From: Candidatus Heimdallarchaeota archaeon
Lineage (GTDB): Archaea; Asgardarchaeota; Heimdallarchaeia; Heimdallarchaeales; Kariarchaeaceae
Assembly (NCBI GenBank): GCA_030149205.1
Contig: JASBSB010000006.1
Coordinates: 480,001-512,000, forward strand
Direction of reading: 5' to 3'
DNA length: 32,000 nucleotides
Made by a program: the position numbers and the translations under genes. The notes under the pieces were generated by a model. It saw only the letters and a list, made by a program, of their open reading frames with translations, was not told where the DNA came from and ran no database searches. Below, one piece after another: positions 24,944-30,423 of the stretch (position 1 is the stretch's first letter; every line of letters starts with the position of its first letter).

Positions 24944-27511
24944 TTATTTTGATTTTTCTGTTACGAATTCCTTATAATTTGGAGAGATGGTTAAATCAAC
25001 GATACCTGTACCAAGGGTGATTTCTTGTCCTACAATAACGTTTTCAATGATACCTACAAGATTATCACGTTCTCCTCTTATCGAAGCATCTAAGAGATGT
25101 TTAACAGTAACTTCAAATGCAGCTCTGGCCAAAACCGAAGTGTTTTCTCCTGAGATCCCATGTCTCCCTATCTGTCGAATATCGCCTGAATAGGTCATTA
25201 AATCTGAAACAAGCATTAAGTGCCTCATGTCAACCTCTAATCCTTGTTTTTCCATAACTTCATTTGATTCACGGATGATTGCATTTCTTGCTGCCTCAAT
25301 GCCAAGAGTTTCTGCAATTTCATGGATATGGTTAGTATAAGATTTTTCTGGATCAACTCCAGGAATTCTTAGTACCTGTATAAAGTTAGAGCCTTCAGAG
25401 ATTATCTCGAATCTTTCTTCCTCTCCTTCCTTTGAGCTCTTCTTCTTGATCATAACTCGACTTACACCTTTTAGCCCCTTTATTGGGATAGCTCTAACTT
25501 TTTCAGATAATTTTTGGAGCTCTTGTAAGGTTGGGCTTTCTGCATTTGGATAAACCACAATTACGTTCCCATCAACTGAAGCTTTATACTTTCTTTTTTG
25601 AATTTTCTCTCTAACCTCTTCAGGTGTGACCCCTTTATCACTGAGAAGTTCTTTGTTTAAGCTGACATTAATGGTTAAATTGATTTGATCCGTCTCTAAC
25701 TTTTCTGCGAGATCATTTACAGTTGTTAATTCAATATTCTGGGCAACTTCCTTTGCCTTCTCCCTATTTGTTTCATATTCTGGTTCCAAAGCAACTGTCA
25801 TACTAGGAGTACTGGGTTTTTTCCTTGCATCAACAATCTCAATTAGACGTGGTAAACCAAGTGTTACATTCATCTCTCTAACACCTGCAAAGTGGAAGGT
25901 TCTTAGAGTATTATGTGTGACAACACCATCGGCCGTAACAAAAGTTTCACTCCCAGGAACCGAAAAATCGTATACATAAGTGGTGGGAGATTTGATTCTC
26001 TTGATGTTGGTTATCCTATCCCAAGTTACGTCACTATAGATTGCATTTTCAAGAATTAAAAGCTCTTCAGTTAATTCTGCTGAGTTCTTATGATTTTTCA
26101 AAGAGTTATAGATCTGTATTAATTCTGTTCTCTGTAGAGATGAAAAATTTTGGAAGCTGGTTTTAAGCTTAATATTTACAATTTCATTTAAATTCTCAAA
26201 GCCTGGAATAACATCAGTCTTTGTGGATTTAATCGAGTTTAATCCCAATACATATTGAAAATCATTTTCATTTACAATAAGAGAATAATTATTTTTATTG
26301 AACCTAGTAATAACTTCAAACATTGAGAACAACAAACCAATCATCTGTAGATTCCAATCAGAATGTACATTGATCCGATAGTCCATTCCCTCTAAAGAGG
26401 TTAATTCGGAGTATAATAAATGTTCAAGAAATTCAGCTCTGAAGTTTTCATCATGTTCCAATATGTCTACAGGAATTTTATAATCTGAGTTTTCCTCCAA
26501 ATTTCTAACTATTGTTAAAATTTCTACAGAAATATCGGTAGTATCAATTGATGCTTTAACTTTTCTCTCTAATTCTCTCAACGCAACTTGGACATTTCCA
26601 GAATTTCCATAGGTTAATTCACTTGAGATCTGTTGAGGAGAATGTTTTGGGAATTTCATCATCACTGGAATGCTATCCCCAATCTTTAGCATATTTCCCT
26701 TTATAGGAATAATAGAGTTTTTAGCTCTGACTACAAATGAATGAGATGGAGTTGCGATTATTGACCTTCCTGAGGCAAAATCAACTTTTATCAAATTTCC
26801 GTTAGGTTTATGCCTGCTTATCTCTGCAACCGGTAACCATTCAACCTTCTCAGTTTGAACCAGTGATGGAACCTGTAAATTAAGTTCAGTGACGTCACCA
26901 ATAAAACTATCATTTTCTTGAATTTTTTTAGATTCAGGTAAAAGATCAATCAGATCATTGACCAACTCCTCAAAAGTTAAAACCTGAATTTTATCTTTAA
27001 ATTGCACAATGATCCTTTCGTTTCCTGATATTGACATTTGTGTCCCAGGTTCTCCAATACTCTGTGCACTTACAACACCTGCTGCTGCACCAGGATCCAT
27101 TTCTGCAAAGGTGTATGATCGAAAGATCTCAAGCATTATGGTTTCAAATTGTTCTTGAGTGACATATGTTGAATTTTTATCTGGTTTAGATTTTGTGGCG
27201 TTGATTTCACTTGCACGCTCTTTTAATTTTGCCCTAAGTTGATTTAAGACATCAAGAGAAACCAAACGATCAGATCTATTCTGATAATCTGCTAATTGAG
27301 TCTCTATATCGTCAAACGAAAGATATCCATTACTTTTACCTGTTGCCTTCTTGGTAGTTTCCTTTTTAGTGGTTGACTTCTTGGTAGTTTCCTTTTTAGT
27401 GGTTGCCTTCTTGGTAGTTTCTTTTTTGGTGGTTGCCTTCTTGGTAGTTGCCTTTTTGGTGGTTGCCTTCTTAGCAGTTTCTTTCTTGGGTACGGTGCTT
27501 TTCTTTGCCAT
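24944..27511 (-). CDS. rpoA2: DNA-directed RNA polymerase subunit A'' (Rpo1C), intein-containing, with a Lys/Thr-rich N-terminal repeat
   Basis: AQSIGEPGTQM|intein|TLRTFHFAGV, TLGLPRLIE, TNHIHEI...LGIEAAR, VD.RHL.LV.D.MT, LARAAFE, ENVIVGQ. Confidence 0.96.
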   Translation of the reverse strand: MAKKSTVPKKETAKKATTKKATTKKATTKKETTKKATTKKETTKKSTTKKETTKKATGKSNGYLSFDDIETQLADYQNRSDRLVSLDVLNQLRAKLKERASEINATKSKPDKNSTYVTQEQFETIMLEIFRSYTFAEMDPGAAAGVVSAQSIGEPGTQMSISGNERIIVQFKDKIQVLTFEELVNDLIDLLPESKKIQENDSFIGDVTELNLQVPSLVQTEKVEWLPVAEISRHKPNGNLIKVDFASGRSIIATPSHSFVVRAKNSIIPIKGNMLKIGDSIPVMMKFPKHSPQQISSELTYGNSGNVQVALRELERKVKASIDTTDISVEILTIVRNLEENSDYKIPVDILEHDENFRAEFLEHLLYSELTSLEGMDYRINVHSDWNLQMIGLLFSMFEVITRFNKNNYSLIVNENDFQYVLGLNSIKSTKTDVIPGFENLNEIVNIKLKTSFQNFSSLQRTELIQIYNSLKNHKNSAELTEELLILENAIYSDVTWDRITNIKRIKSPTTYVYDFSVPGSETFVTADGVVTHNTLRTFHFAGVREMNVTLGLPRLIEIVDARKKPSTPSMTVALEPEYETNREKAKEVAQNIELTTVNDLAEKLETDQINLTINVSLNKELLSDKGVTPEEVREKIQKRKYKASVDGNVIVVYPNAESPTLQELQKLSEKVRAIPIKGLKGVSRVMIKKKSSKEGEEERFEIISEGSNFIQVLRIPGVDPEKSYTNHIHEIAETLGIEAARNAIIRESNEVMEKQGLEVDMRHLMLVSDLMTYSGDIRQIGRHGISGENTSVLARAAFEVTVKHLLDASIRGERDNLVGIIENVIVGQEITLGTGIVDLTISPNYKEFVTEKSK
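25910..27034 (-). mobile_element. Intein (375 aa, residues 160-534 of RpoA'') with degenerate LAGLIDADG homing endonuclease
   Basis: Interrupts GTQM/TLRTF. Starts SISGNE, block B I.ATPSHSF, ends VYDFSVPGSETFV.ADG.VTHN; +1 residue is Thr. Confidence 0.95.
27338..27487 (-). repeat. Tandem 15-bp (30-bp higher-order) repeat encoding 10 x KK[AES]T[TAG]
   Basis: TTGGTAGTTTCCTTTTTAGTGGTTGCCTTC-like 30-mers at 27351, 27381, 27411 and 27441. Confidence 0.95.
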
Positions 27512-30237
27512 TATTCTTCATCCTCACCTAATACTGTTTGTAGGATTACATCGATATTAACAGCTTTTCCATTATCACTTTTTGCTGGATCTATGTTATC
27601 CTCACCAAATTTGAACTGGATAATTTCACCAGTCGAATTTCTTACTGTTTTATCATAATTCGCGGTTAAATCTTGCATTGCATTTACCAATCTTCTTTGC
27701 ATATATCCACTAGAACTTGTACGGACAGCAGTATCTACTAATCCTTCTCTTCCACCACAAGCATGCATGAAAAACTCAATAGGCGTAAGACCTTTCCTAA
27801 AACTGGAATTAACAAATCCGTGAGCATCAGCAGAAAGATCTCCCCGGGTGAAATGAGGTAATGTTCTATCTTCATATCCTCTCATAATCCTGTTTCCACG
27901 GACAGATTGTTGCCCTACACAAGCACTCATCTGTGACAAGTTTAACATATTTCCTCTTGCACCAGTCTTTGCCATAATAACCGCCTCATTCGTCATACCA
28001 AGATATTCTGCGCTAACACTGCCGGCCTCATCACGAGCCTTTGCAAGTTCATCCTGAATCTTTGCTTCGAGAGATTCTCTTAAGGTATTTCCGGGAATAC
28101 GTTCTAATTTTCCAGAGTGAAACTCATCAATTAATTTATCTACATTTTCCTTTCGTTTCCCTATCTCAGAATCTATTCTCTCTCTACCTTCGATTGGAAC
28201 CTCAACTGCATCTACCCCAATTGTAAATCCACGTCTTGTGATATAGGCAGCAAGCATTTTAGTAATACCATCCAAAAATTTTCTTGTGGCATTTGTACCA
28301 AACTCCTTTAAAATTCGATGTAATACAGAATTAGGCACCTCAGCACCAAACCCTTGCTTATCAATTACCCCTGCAATTAGTTTTCCATTTTTAATAATAA
28401 CATAACCATCTGTTGGACATCTCTCCTTTAGACATTTTCCATCTGGTTGAGTCTTATCACAGACACATAGTTTATTCTTCATAGAAAAATTAAGTTCTTT
28501 TGGGAGCAATGTACTAAACAGAGTACGTCCGGACCATAATGGTGTACCATCAATGGTTTTTTTATCAGGTTCAGGCATCTCCCAAACATCAGCAGCCGTG
28601 AGTAGTTCACTCGCAGTTCTCTTTTCAAGATAAGTCCCACTTTTTGTTAAGAAATATGAAGCTGTGATAAAGTCCTGAATTGCTCCTATAATTGGGCCTC
28701 CGTACCTTGGTGTACTGATCTGTTCTTGAACCTTCATAAGTATATTCGCTTCTGCTCTTGCCTCTTCACTCTGAGGGACATGAAGATTCATCTCATCTCC
28801 ATCAAAGTCAGCATTATAAGGCCTACAAACACAAAGATTTAATCTAAAGGTCTTATAAGGCATCACTTTGACTTCATGAGCCATAATTGACATTCGATGC
28901 AGACTTGGTTGACGGTTAAACAGTACAATATCACCATCTCTAAGGTGACGTTCTATAATAAAACCAGGTCTCAGGGATTCAGAAACTATAGATGGATCAC
29001 GAGCAAACCTAAGGTCGATACGTCTCCCATCATCTCTAATAATATAATTTACCCCAGGATCACCCTTTGGTCCCTGCATAACCAACTCTTTCATTTCCTC
29101 TATATTCCATTCTGTCACCCTTTCTGGAACTGTCAGAATTTCTGCGATTTCCTTGGGGACACCCACCTGATTTATTGAGAGTAACGGATCTGGAGAGACA
29201 ACAGTACGGGCTGAAAAATCAACACGCTTACCGCTTAAGTTAGAACGGAATCTACCCTCTTTACCTTTTAATCTTTGAGTCAGAGTTCGTAAAGCTCTCC
29301 CACTCCTATGTCTCGCTGGAGGAATTCCACTAACTTCATTATCTAGATAAGTTGTGACGTGGTATTGGAGAAGCTCCCATAAATCCTCAACAATTAATTG
29401 AGGAGCACCTGATTCTCTATTATCATAAAGTCGTTGGTTTATTCGTATGATGTCAACAAGTTTATGTGTTAAATCATCCTCTGATCTTATCCCTGAATCT
29501 AGTGTGATACTTGGTCTTACGGATACTGGAGGAACAGGTAATACATCTAAAATCATCCATTCAGGTCTTGCATTCTCAGCATCAATTCCAAGAAGTAAGG
29601 CATCGTCATCTGGTATCAGCTTAAGTCTACCTTGAACTTCCAAAGCAGAAATTTTATCAACTACTTTGTTTCCATTAGCGGTTTCAAATTCTTCATTATA
29701 TGTAGTTGGTTTTTCTAATCTAACTTTATGCTGGAACTCCCCACAATGAGGACAGCCGTGACCTTCATCACCACCCTTTGGGTTAATCAGTTGATCACGT
29801 GCCTTTTTAGCCTTCTTCCATATTTGTTCCAAAAGTAACTGATCTAGTGTACCTGTTTCCTCTCGTCCCTGTCTTAGTTTGTTTACATAGAAAGTTACCT
29901 GCCGCTGGGGCAATACAATCCTTGAACATTTTCTACAAACTACTTGGAGGATCTTATATATTGTTTTGTTGAACCCCACGTGCACAATTGGTCTTTGTAA
30001 TTCTATATGACCAAAGTGCCCCGGACAGCCACCGATCCTATTTCCACAGGTAGTACATCTGGTACCAGGGTCTATCGTCCCTAATGCCGAATCCATTAAC
30101 CCATGAGGAATTGGTGTCCCATCCTCGTCAAATGTGTCTGCTGTAATAATACGTTGGACACTCATCTTTCGGATTTCATCTGGTGATAAAAGTCCGAACC
30201 TTATTGCTGCAATAGATTTAGGTAAATTGTAAGCCAT
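27511..30237 (-). CDS. rpoA1: DNA-directed RNA polymerase subunit A' (Rpo1N)
   Basis: C..C...CPGHFGHIEL, GKRVDFSARTV, NRQPSLH, catalytic NADFDGDEMN, DTAVRT.SSGYMQRRL. ATG at 30237 with a GGGTG SD. Stop overlaps the rpoA2 start (TAATG). Confidence 0.97.
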   Translation of the reverse strand: MAYNLPKSIAAIRFGLLSPDEIRKMSVQRIITADTFDEDGTPIPHGLMDSALGTIDPGTRCTTCGNRIGGCPGHFGHIELQRPIVHVGFNKTIYKILQVVCRKCSRIVLPQRQVTFYVNKLRQGREETGTLDQLLLEQIWKKAKKARDQLINPKGGDEGHGCPHCGEFQHKVRLEKPTTYNEEFETANGNKVVDKISALEVQGRLKLIPDDDALLLGIDAENARPEWMILDVLPVPPVSVRPSITLDSGIRSEDDLTHKLVDIIRINQRLYDNRESGAPQLIVEDLWELLQYHVTTYLDNEVSGIPPARHRSGRALRTLTQRLKGKEGRFRSNLSGKRVDFSARTVVSPDPLLSINQVGVPKEIAEILTVPERVTEWNIEEMKELVMQGPKGDPGVNYIIRDDGRRIDLRFARDPSIVSESLRPGFIIERHLRDGDIVLFNRQPSLHRMSIMAHEVKVMPYKTFRLNLCVCRPYNADFDGDEMNLHVPQSEEARAEANILMKVQEQISTPRYGGPIIGAIQDFITASYFLTKSGTYLEKRTASELLTAADVWEMPEPDKKTIDGTPLWSGRTLFSTLLPKELNFSMKNKLCVCDKTQPDGKCLKERCPTDGYVIIKNGKLIAGVIDKQGFGAEVPNSVLHRILKEFGTNATRKFLDGITKMLAAYITRRGFTIGVDAVEVPIEGRERIDSEIGKRKENVDKLIDEFHSGKLERIPGNTLRESLEAKIQDELAKARDEAGSVSAEYLGMTNEAVIMAKTGARGNMLNLSQMSACVGQQSVRGNRIMRGYEDRTLPHFTRGDLSADAHGFVNSSFRKGLTPIEFFMHACGGREGLVDTAVRTSSSGYMQRRLVNAMQDLTANYDKTVRNSTGEIIQFKFGEDNIDPAKSDNGKAVNIDVILQTVLGEDEE

Positions 30238-30423
30238 GTCACACCCACGGAATTGTGATTGAAAAAAAAAAGCTCTTCGAGACAATTTGAAGAACTTTTA
30301 GATATATCTTAACCTATTGGAGAATCAATTTTATTAAAGTATTAAGATGCCTCGCGCATAAAGTTAGGCATAAAAACCCTTTTTTTATGAAAGAAACTTT
30401 TAACCAAATTCAAGAGAAATTTA

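What the first reader, a model, noticed from the sequence alone, without database searches (positions are those of the whole stretch)
27338..27511. RNA polymerase A'' carries a histone-H1-like tandem repeat tail (KKxTT)10
Seen: residues 9-58 are ten pentads KK[A/E/S]T[T/A/G]; the first 59 residues hold 23 Lys and 19 Thr. The DNA has 15/30-bp periodicity, indicating recent slippage expansion. Translation from this ATG is supported by the TAATG overlap and a GGTGAGG SD. Known: typical archaeal RpoA'' has no such tail; the A'/A'' junction maps to the surface foot region of Rpb1; the Pol II CTD is a modifiable repeat on the same subunit, and H1 tails are Lys/Ala/Thr-rich. Inference: a disordered, phosphorylatable or acetylatable polycationic RNAP appendage for nucleic acid/chromatin binding, condensate formation or factor recruitment. 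This would be an analogue, not a homologue, of the CTD.
Basis: partly seen in the sequence, partly recalled or inferred. Interest (0 to 1): 0.76.

Follow-up and report, generated by a model that had tools for sequence, protein, structure and literature searches.

The report
Lysine-repeat tail on RNA polymerase A''
The RNA polymerase subunit A'' of this Heimdall-group Asgard archaeon begins with a real, recently expanded 62-residue lysine/threonine repeat tail that probably gives the enzyme an extra unspecific grip on DNA; its close relatives lack it, but Thorarchaeota carry a similar tail clade-wide and no paper I found describes either.

Summary
rpoA'' (minus strand, 24944-27511) opens with ten KK[A/E/S]T[T/A/G] pentads. 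They are encoded by a 15/30-bp tandem array (27342-27489) inserted between the conserved MAKK start and the conserved YL... helix.

No other start codon lies between the tail and the conserved sequence. A second assembler reproduces the array exactly, and no 31-mer is repeated. The tail is therefore real and almost certainly translated.

All 14 Heimdall-order relatives whose A'' N-terminus I read, and the closest database homologues, lack it.
- Thorarchaeota A'' carry a 33-73-residue tail of the same composition, clade-wide.
- One Heimdall relative carries two helix-hairpin-helix domains on a lysine linker at the same place.
- Lokiarchaeia extend the adjoining A' C-terminus.
- This scan has already noted lysine-rich A'' tails on other DNA (Thermoplasmatota, DPANN).

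The nearest sequence matches to the tail are (KKATT)n tails of bacterial HU and helix-hairpin-helix proteins. The pattern fits the "lysine repeats" shown to bind DNA in Streptomyces topoisomerase I.

Best reading: a young, disordered polycationic DNA tether at the A'/A'' junction. The phosphorylation, acetylation and condensate ideas are untested. Interest is moderate.

The parts
27326..27511 (-). Codons 1-62 of rpoA'': the Lys/Thr-rich tail (MAKK, STVP, ten KKxTx pentads, KSNG). 37% Lys, 31% Thr, net charge +19.
   Evidence: Translation; composition; pentad check; AlphaFold2 single-sequence model shows no secondary structure and pLDDT about 50 for residues 1-60, with helices from residue 66.
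27342..27489 (-). The tandem DNA array that encodes the pentads: a 30-bp unit made of two 15-bp subunits, ATTKK and ETTKK.
   Evidence: TRF gives period 30 x 4.7 copies at 91% and period 15 x 9.9 copies. The longest exact repeat is 29 nt and no 31-mer is repeated. In the eight core units, all variation in the Thr and Lys codons is third-position synonymous.
27509..27528 (-). Translation start region: SD-like GGTGAGG (27528-27522), the A' stop TAA (27513-27511) and the overlapping A'' ATG (27511-27509).
   Evidence: Sequence. 16S 3' end ...GGATCACCTCCT found in the genome. The next in-frame ATG/GTG/TTG is codon 83, inside the conserved N-terminal helix region.
24944..27511 (-). rpoA'' (Rpo1C) coding sequence, 855 aa plus stop.
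   Evidence: Pfam RNA_pol_Rpb1_5 E 9.5e-45. Matches solved archaeal Rpo1C chains. 64-72% identical over the C-terminal 320 residues to contigs named Candidatus Heimdallarchaeota.
25910..27034 (-). Intein of 375 residues (residues 160-534) inserted after GEPGTQM in the trigger-loop region. It starts with Ser and ends with His-Asn, followed by Thr.
   Evidence: Pfam Intein_splicing E 6.5e-20; boundaries. Same-genus homologues of 890-898 aa have an intein at the same site.
27511..30285 (-). rpoA' (Rpo1N) open frame. The likely start is the ATG at about 30237. It ends ...VLGEDEE, with no extension.
   Evidence: Pfam Rpb1 domains 1-5; translation. Residues 802-903 align with yeast Rpb1 777-878, and the frame runs to the end of solved archaeal Rpo1N chains.

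Best explanation
SHOWN. rpoA'' of this Heimdallarchaeia genome carries an in-frame 15/30-bp tandem array at its 5' end. The array turns the ancestral start MAKK(K)-YL... into MAKK + about 58 residues of (KKxTT)n + YL.... It is not an assembly artefact. No alternative start exists, so A'' is made with a 62-residue tail of net charge +19 that is predicted to be disordered.

INFERRED ORIGIN. The Lys codons of the conserved MAKK start are AAG/AAA-rich. Replication slippage or unequal recombination there first produced a 15-bp duplication. The resulting 30-bp unit was then amplified again more recently. The array is young: units are 91% alike, whereas the Thorarchaeota tails have almost no DNA periodicity left.

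INFERRED FUNCTION. The tail emerges at the A'/A'' junction. That junction corresponds to the foot region of Rpb1, next to Rpo5 on the downstream face of the enzyme. The tail would act as a sequence-independent electrostatic tether to nucleic acid, most likely the DNA entering the enzyme. This would raise the polymerase's general DNA affinity and the stability of its complexes with DNA. Lysine repeats do this in Streptomyces topoisomerase I, and the positively charged tail of Rpo13 has been proposed to do the same in Sulfolobus RNAP.

The same solution evolved independently and is retained clade-wide in Thorarchaeota. That is the main argument that such a tail is useful rather than merely tolerated.
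For: Real and translated:
- The ORF and tail are as described.
- Only one start codon lies upstream of the conserved segment.
- Alignment with eight homologues shows a clean insertion between M(AKK) and YL.
- Logan's independent contig of run X1 (149.6 kb, depth 76.6) spans 27000-27900 with 0 differences. No 31-mer is repeated in the array.

Young and lineage-specific:
- I read the A'' N-terminus in 27 fetched loci of same-order genomes, and none has the tail. 14 are annotated with no insertion. A same-genus genome (G003) has a different N-terminal repeat, and 12 others were fetched but not reported individually.
- No A'' among the closest database homologues has it either.
- TRF finds 91% unit identity here, against only a 2.2-copy remnant in a Thorarchaeota tail.

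Constraint:
- In the eight core units, the Thr-Thr-Lys-Lys codons vary only at synonymous third positions. Amino-acid changes are confined to pentad position 3, A/E/S.

Convergence at the same site:
- In a search of 400 Asgard genomes, the tail aligned to A'' in at least 13 genomes of family f31.
- Translations show MSKK-started tails directly after the A' stop.
- 111 of the 120 best database relatives of P0012, several named Thorarchaeota, have tails of 33-73 aa with median 38% Lys and net charge +10 to +27.
- P0007, a Heimdall relative, has two HHH_5 domains (E 2e-14) plus a Lys linker at the A'' N-terminus.
- Lokiarchaeia A' has a C-terminal Lys-rich linker plus a small conserved domain, found in 204 proteins.

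What the repeat is attached to elsewhere:
- Tail-only matches of up to 81% identity fall on (KKATT)n or (KKATA)n tails of HU (Bac_DNA_binding), HhH proteins and NYN/PIN nucleases.

Literature:
- Lysine repeats K1-2(A/T/N)3-5 bind DNA and confer processivity. They also occur in HupS, FtsK, Ku and sigma HrdB (PMC5714199).
- The foot insertion of human RPA1 sits on the downstream face of Rpb5, close to incoming DNA (PMC9438803).
Against: - No expression or protein data exist for this organism.
- The close relatives do without the tail, so it cannot be essential and may be neutral.
- The count of independent mutations behind the synonymous-only pattern is small (about five), and much of the pattern is inherited by duplication.
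- Four of the ten pentads carry Glu, which lowers charge density compared with HU or TopA tails.
- The position of the A'' N-terminus relative to DNA was not measured here. It rests on alignments, on the foot boundaries as I recall them, and on a Pol I paper.
- DNA binding by the tail is an inference from composition and analogy.
Confidence: 0.5

Rival explanations
1. The tail is a neutral by-product. It is a recent microsatellite-like coding expansion at a surface-exposed, unstructured terminus, translated and tolerated but without a selected role in this species.
For: It is absent from all same-order relatives whose A'' N-terminus I read and from the closest database homologues. Unit identity is high, which implies recent origin. 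The Lys codons at the conserved MAKK start are AAG/AAA-rich, a slippage-prone seed, in a 35.5% GC genome. A congener (G003) has a different, equally idiosyncratic repeat expansion in the same N-terminal region, which suggests that the region simply tolerates insertions.
Against: A +19 tail of 62 residues on an abundant DNA-bound enzyme can hardly be inert. The same composition is maintained clade-wide in Thorarchaeota. Variation in the Thr and Lys codons is synonymous only. The frame is kept through at least four rounds of duplication.
Confidence: 0.3
2. The tail is a regulated platform rather than a plain DNA tether. Thr phosphorylation or Lys acetylation would tune charge, factor recruitment or condensate formation, making it an analogue of the Pol II CTD or of histone tails.
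For: 19 Thr and 23 Lys sit in a regular array. Acetylation control of a lysine-repeat protein (HupS) appears in the title and abstract of PMC11229371 as listed; I did not read the paper. The Pol II foot is a known docking site for regulators (PMC9438803).
Against: No kinase, acetylase or reader link was found or sought. There is no conserved motif beyond composition. [quoted passage not shown] The idea rests on residue chemistry alone.
Confidence: 0.1
3. The tail is not part of the protein. Either translation starts elsewhere, or the array is an assembly or binning artefact, or the A-rich stretch works only at the mRNA level to help re-initiation after rpoA'.
For: MAKK/MSKK starts with A-rich codons are common at this junction. 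Repeats are classic sites of assembly errors. There is no proteomic or RNA evidence.
Against: The next possible start would delete about 20 residues that are conserved across relatives. Two assemblers agree, and the array has no repeated 31-mer. About 150 nt of strictly codon-periodic repeat is far more than an unstructured initiation region needs.
Confidence: 0.05

Closest known systems
N-terminal Lys/Thr/Ala/Pro-rich tail of Thorarchaeota RpoA'' (seen here in databases; I found no publication)
   Same: Same subunit and same position, directly after the start and before the first conserved helix. Same length class (33-73 aa against 62), the same Lys share (median 38% against 37%) and similar net charge.
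   Different: It is clade-wide and old, with almost no DNA periodicity left, starts MSKK and is richer in Ala and Pro. The tail here is a strict, young pentad repeat confined to one species-level lineage of another class. Close relatives on both sides lack a tail, so the origins are independent.
'Lysine repeats' K1-2(A/T/N)3-5 of actinobacterial topoisomerase I, HupS/HupB (HU), FtsK, Ku and sigma HrdB (Strzalka et al. 2017, PMC5714199)
   Same: The motif (KK followed by three small residues, many copies), the disordered terminal location on a DNA enzyme, and near-identical peptides: (KKATT)n tails on HU-family proteins match the tail at up to 81% identity. DNA binding and processivity were shown experimentally for TopA.
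   Different: Those are bacterial, mostly C-terminal and Ala-rich, and were linked by the authors to GC-rich genomes. This case is archaeal, N-terminal, Thr-rich with some Glu, and sits in a 35.5% GC genome on the RNA polymerase catalytic subunit.
Rpo13 of Sulfolobales RNA polymerase (Korkhin et al. 2009, PMC2675907)
   Same: An archaeal RNAP component whose highly positively charged, disordered terminus reaches the DNA entry channel. It is a built-in unspecific DNA contact near Rpo5.
   Different: Rpo13 is a separate small helix-turn-helix subunit. [quoted passage not shown] Here the charge is fused to A'' itself.
Lineage-specific insertions in the foot of the largest subunit, e.g. the 'dock II' HMG-like domain of human Pol I RPA1 (PMC9438803)
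   Same: The same region of the largest subunit is used as an insertion point for an extra module, which ends up on the downstream face near Rpb5 and incoming DNA.
   Different: Dock II is a folded domain that does not bind DNA and is proposed to recruit topoisomerase 2a. The tail here is unstructured and polycationic.
Lysine-rich tails and HhH arms on RpoA'' noted earlier in this scan on other DNA (Thermoplasmatota, DPANN; notes e1-1152662, e1-3706335, e1-1230268)
   Same: Same subunit end and the same two solutions: a Lys-rich tail, or an HhH domain on a Lys leash. I found both again independently among Asgard archaea.
   Different: They are in other phyla, and those notes are unchecked AI reports that I did not re-test. 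The present case differs in being a perfect, young tandem repeat restricted to one lineage.
Pol II CTD and histone H1/HC2 tails
   Same: Repetitive, disordered and rich in modifiable residues. H1/HC2 are similar in composition (HC2 E 3e-4).
   Different: There is no heptad, it is not at the C-terminus, and it is not homologous. The HC2 score is below Pfam's cut-off and there is no H1 globular domain.

Membership tests
RNA polymerase subunit A'' (Rpo1C) | Rpb1 domain 5 with the trigger-loop motif; gene directly downstream of rpoA' | tested here: met
   PF04998 E 9.5e-45. GEPGTQM, and after the intein TLRTFHFAG. TAATG overlap with an ORF holding Rpb1 domains 1-5. Matches solved Rpo1C chains.
Lysine repeats sensu Strzalka et al. 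2017 | [quoted passage not shown] | tested here: met
   Ten KK+3 pentads and 37% Lys. Four pentads have Glu in the spacer, so they are not strictly neutral.
Lysine repeats sensu Strzalka et al. 2017 | Ala-rich spacers (at least 27% Ala in their TopA set; at least 10% in their proteome search) | tested here: inconclusive
   11% Ala and 31% Thr. This passes the looser proteome criterion but fails the TopA one. Thr is an allowed spacer residue in their motif.
Lysine repeats sensu Strzalka et al. 2017 | Binds DNA and stabilises the enzyme-DNA complex | not testable with these tools
   Needs EMSA, SPR or single-molecule assays with and without the tail.
Histone H1 / H1-like nucleoprotein HC2 | Pfam HC2 at gathering score, or an H1 globular winged-helix domain | tested here: not met
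   HC2 scores 21.3 bits against a cut-off of 40. No other domain is found in residues 1-62.
Pol II CTD-type repeat | [quoted passage not shown] | tested here: not met
   The repeats are KKxTT pentads at the N-terminus of A''. By alignment this lies inside Rpb1, around residue 900-1000.
Thorarchaeota-type A'' tail (homologous membership) | Common descent of the tail with that of Thorarchaeota | tested here: not met
   All same-order Heimdall relatives whose A'' N-terminus I read lack it. Two Thorarchaeota genera lack it too (L075, L077). The DNA array here is young. Independent origin is the simpler reading.
Intein (for the insertion at residues 160-534) | Nucleophile at residue 1, C-terminal His-Asn, nucleophile at +1, splicing-domain profile | tested here: met
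   Ser160 ... His533-Asn534 / Thr535. PF14890 E 6.5e-20. No LAGLIDADG profile hit at E <= 0.01.

The most novel reading that the evidence does not exclude
Asgard archaea have repeatedly used the A'/A'' junction of their RNA polymerase, the counterpart of the Rpb1 foot, as a socket for nucleic-acid-binding or regulatory appendages. Examples are the Lys-repeat tails here and clade-wide in Thorarchaeota, an HhH arm in another Heimdall lineage, and a Lys linker plus a novel mini-domain on Lokiarchaeia A'. On this reading the tail is a selected, possibly modification-tuned module. It would couple the polymerase to DNA or chromatin ahead of it, and would be a prokaryotic forerunner, in kind, of the enlarged regulatory foot and the tails of eukaryotic polymerases.
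Probability: 0.15. Interest if true: 0.8.

Novelty: new variant of a known kind. Interest (0 to 1): 0.5.

Why it matters
Archaeal RNA polymerase is the model for the ancestry of Pol II, and Heimdallarchaeia are among the closest known relatives of eukaryotes. A polymerase-borne, unspecific DNA-binding tail would change how we picture DNA engagement, processivity and passage through histone-bound DNA in these organisms.

The junction between A' and A'' appears to be a hot spot. Different Asgard classes have added different modules there. This is easy to test, since it needs only recombinant proteins, and as far as I could find it is not in the literature.

This single case also catches such a tail at birth. 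It shows how a conserved Lys-rich start codon context can seed a new disordered domain by slippage.

Tried and rejected
- Expression: no RNA holder was listed for this stretch, so nothing can be said about it.
- Runs X2-X4: they hold only short or divergent pieces and do not bridge the array. X3 has 100%-identical low-depth contigs on both flanks (27000-27084 and 27832-27900) but none across the repeat.
- DNA-level alignment with congeners was too divergent to show insertion boundaries. The protein alignment was used instead.
- The all-against-all representative search with residues 1-160 found no other tail-bearing A'' at E <= 0.001, because the A'' N-terminus is too divergent. It mainly returned unrelated proteins with similar repeats.
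- Pfam found nothing for the Lokiarchaeia A' C-terminal mini-domain, and Foldseek against PDB gave no match with E <= 0.001.
- Literature searches on Asgard / RNA polymerase / lysine-rich / Rpo1 / extension found no paper describing these tails. The library is incomplete, so this is not proof of novelty.
- I could not find a paper stating where the A'' N-terminus sits relative to DNA.
- The antisense ORF 27351-27560 (+) is a mirror product of the repeat and was not pursued.
- Rejected: membership in histone H1/HC2 and homology with the Pol II CTD (see membership tests).
Full report
WHAT IS THERE

The finding lies on the minus strand. ORF 24944-27511 encodes an 855-residue protein with Pfam RNA_pol_Rpb1_5 (E 9.5e-45) and an intein splicing domain. 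Its ATG overlaps the TAA of the upstream ORF, which holds Rpb1 domains 1-5 and is therefore rpoA'. The gene is rpoA''.

Its first 62 residues read MAKK, STVP, ten pentads KK[A/E/S]T[T/A/G], then KSNG. Tandem Repeats Finder gives a 30-bp unit (4.7 copies, 91% matches, score 231) built of two 15-bp subunits. In the whole 3.3-Mb genome only 8 of 9192 long open frames reach 14 Lys in 40 residues.

IS IT REAL AND IS IT TRANSLATED?

Logan's independent assembly of run X1 contains a 149.6-kb contig, depth 76.6, that spans 27000-27900 with no difference. X1 may be the source sample, so it is not independent data. The longest exact repeat inside the array is 29 nt and no 31-mer recurs. A de Bruijn assembler therefore has a unique path through it, and collapse or inflation of copy number is unlikely.

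In the reading frame, the only ATG/GTG/TTG upstream of the conserved part is the MAKK ATG. The next candidate is codon 83. Residues 63-82 (YLSFDDIETQLADYQNRSDR) align with the N-termini of homologues, which begin MAKKKYLTVTELRDQL... or MAAKKKFLT.... The tail is thus a clean insertion between the ancestral MAKK and YL, and a start downstream of it would remove conserved sequence.

An SD-like GGTGAGG sits 10 nt upstream and matches the anti-SD of this genome's 16S rRNA. AlphaFold2 in single-sequence mode, which is a weak test, gives no secondary structure and pLDDT about 50 for residues 1-60, with helices from residue 66. No RNA or protein data are available.

WHO HAS IT?

Contigs most similar to the gene are named Candidatus Heimdallarchaeota.

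- I read the A'' N-terminus in 27 fetched loci from same-order genomes, and none carries the tail; 14 are individually annotated with no insertion. The closest database homologues lack it as well.
- One congener (G003) instead has tandem duplications of the whole ~70-residue N-terminal helical segment.
- A search of 400 Asgard genomes with residues 1-160 aligned the tail in two other families.

In family f31 the translations show A'' starting MSKK directly after the A' stop, followed by 40-73 residues rich in Lys, Thr, Ala, Pro and Ser (28-44% Lys, net +10 to +27), and then the conserved HMEKRF...RRLPP helix. A database search from one such protein (P0012) returned 1432 relatives. Of the 120 best, 111 have such a tail (33-73 aa, median 52, median 38% Lys), and several are named Thorarchaeota, including AB_25. 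Sequences more than 90% identical in the aligned, conserved part of the N-terminal region differ in tail length (48, 64 and 73 aa). The tails therefore change length quickly while keeping their composition. Two Thorarchaeota genera lack the tail (L075, L077). A Thorarchaeota tail shows almost no DNA periodicity, unlike the array here.

In family f20 the Lys-rich stretch belongs to the other side of the junction. RpoA' is 975 aa instead of about 900. After the shared ...VNLDVLLLKA it continues with a helix, a Lys-rich disordered linker and a conserved ~36-residue helix-hairpin-helix-shaped mini-domain, ETGKxAxWRGKxTKxYxEWK. 204 database proteins share this extension, and their names include Lokiarchaeota, though other Asgard labels also occur.

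A Heimdall-type A'' from a Logan assembly (P0007, with a second cluster member, P0015, on a separate 8.1-kb contig) has two HHH_5 helix-hairpin-helix domains (E 2e-14) joined to the same conserved helix by a Lys-rich linker.

The junction between A' and A'' therefore carries lineage-specific, mostly basic appendages in at least three Asgard classes. Earlier notes of this scan report Lys-rich tails and HhH arms on A'' in Thermoplasmatota and DPANN. I did not re-test those.

WHAT IS THE REPEAT LIKE?

Searching 1.84 billion representatives with residues 1-160 returned, besides A'' homologues, many unrelated proteins matching only the tail. Those I scanned carry (KKATT)n or (KKATA)n stretches next to the following domains:
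- HU (Bac_DNA_binding; P0143 at 81% identity, and P0182),
- HhH domains (P0166, P0171),
- NYN or PIN nuclease domains (P0150, P0156).

All of these scanned proteins also hit Pfam HC2. The tail itself hits HC2 only below the cut-off, at 21.3 against 40 bits.

The pattern fits the 'lysine repeat' K1-2(A/T/N)3-5 defined for Streptomyces topoisomerase I. There, removal of the repeats abolished DNA binding by the C-terminal domain and reduced processivity. The same repeats were found enriched in DNA-binding proteins, including HupS, FtsK, Ku and sigma HrdB (PMC5714199).

WHERE DOES IT SIT?

A' residues 802-903 align with yeast Rpb1 777-878, which include the bridge helix, and A' ends about 20 residues later, at the same point as solved archaeal Rpo1N chains. 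A'' residues 117-159 align with RPC1 1006-1048 (human) and 1063-1104 (yeast), and residue 89 aligns with residue 14 of a solved Rpo1C. The junction therefore falls in what the Pol II literature calls the foot. The domain boundaries are from my memory, not tested here.

For human Pol I, an insertion in the foot of RPA1 was seen on the downstream face of Rpb5, close to incoming DNA (PMC9438803). In Sulfolobus, the positively charged end of Rpo13, which docks beside Rpo5, reaches the DNA entry channel (PMC2675907). A 60-residue unfolded chain has a contour length of about 200 Å, comparable to the size of the enzyme. Reaching the downstream duplex is therefore geometrically plausible. This is an inference.

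HOW IT MOST LIKELY WORKS

Shown:
- The tail is an in-frame, young tandem expansion at the conserved Lys-rich start.
- It gives a disordered +19 tail on the catalytic subunit.

Inferred:
- It acts as a sequence-independent electrostatic tether to nucleic acid, most likely the DNA ahead of the enzyme, and increases DNA affinity and complex stability.

The arguments for function are convergence with a clade-wide Thorarchaeota tail, the folded DNA-binding module (HhH) at the same site in a relative, and the fact that within the eight core units the Thr and Lys codons vary only at synonymous sites while amino-acid change is confined to pentad position 3.

The arguments against are that close relatives lack it, that the number of independent mutations is small, and that nothing has been measured. 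I put about 0.85 on 'real and translated' and about 0.5 on the tether function.

NOVELTY AND VERDICT

Lysine-repeat DNA-binding tails are a known kind, and a basic RNAP-borne tail has an archaeal precedent in Rpo13. A Lys-repeat tail on A'' itself, and the wider pattern of appendages at the A'/A'' junction in Asgard archaea, did not turn up in my literature searches. The scan has already met A'' tails on other DNA. This instance is a new variant of a known kind. It is notable mainly as a freshly born example in Heimdallarchaeia and as a pointer to the Thorarchaeota and Lokiarchaeia features. Interest 0.5.

Noticed in passing
window 25910-27034 (minus strand): rpoA'' carries a 375-residue intein in the trigger-loop region, after GEPGTQM (Ser1 ... 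His-Asn / Thr+1). It has no LAGLIDADG Pfam hit, whereas some same-genus homologues (890-898 aa) also hit PF14528. Inteins at this rpoA'' site are known from other archaea (from memory).
   Followed up: partly
L006 (G003:C4:1-2225) and G003:C169:18622-18915: A same-genus genome has at least three tandem copies of the ~70-residue N-terminal helical segment of A'', in place of a Lys tail. The array runs off the contig start, so copy number and assembly are uncertain.
   Followed up: no
L033:624-2423 (protein P0007; cluster member P0015): A Heimdall-type RpoA'' without an intein has two helix-hairpin-helix domains (HHH_5, E 2e-14) and a Lys-rich linker fused to its N-terminus. The two cluster members come from separate Logan contigs of 4.5 and 8.1 kb.
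   Followed up: partly
L084:5170-5562 (G190 RpoA' C-terminus); 204 database proteins: RpoA' with Lokiarchaeota-type names has a ~75-residue C-terminal extension. It consists of a helix, a Lys-rich disordered linker and a conserved mini-domain ETGKxAxWRGKxTKxYxEWK, modelled as helix-hairpin-helix with pLDDT 85-89. There is no Pfam family and no Foldseek match in PDB.
   Followed up: partly
G000:C7:303659-305080 (+), outside the window: This genome's aIF2-gamma has a Lys/Thr/Ser-rich N-terminal tail of about 60 residues before the GTPase domain. It is one of only 8 ORFs in the genome with such Lys density.
   Followed up: no
G000:C4:269345-270439 (-), outside the window: An ORF joins an N-terminal HhH-like segment, a long Lys/Glu/Pro-rich linker and a C-terminal part that looks like ribosomal protein L35Ae. 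This was judged by eye only.
   Followed up: no
P0011, P0013 (1832-1842 aa); G079, G124 (open frames 1844-1916 aa): Some Asgard lineages, named Helarchaeota by NCBI, have A' and A'' fused in one frame, with inteins. In those lineages there is no free junction.
   Followed up: no
L093 (JADZCK010000002.1): A contig labelled Candidatus Nomurabacteria (a bacterium) encodes an archaeal A''-like protein at 43% identity. It is probably a mis-binned archaeal contig.
   Followed up: no
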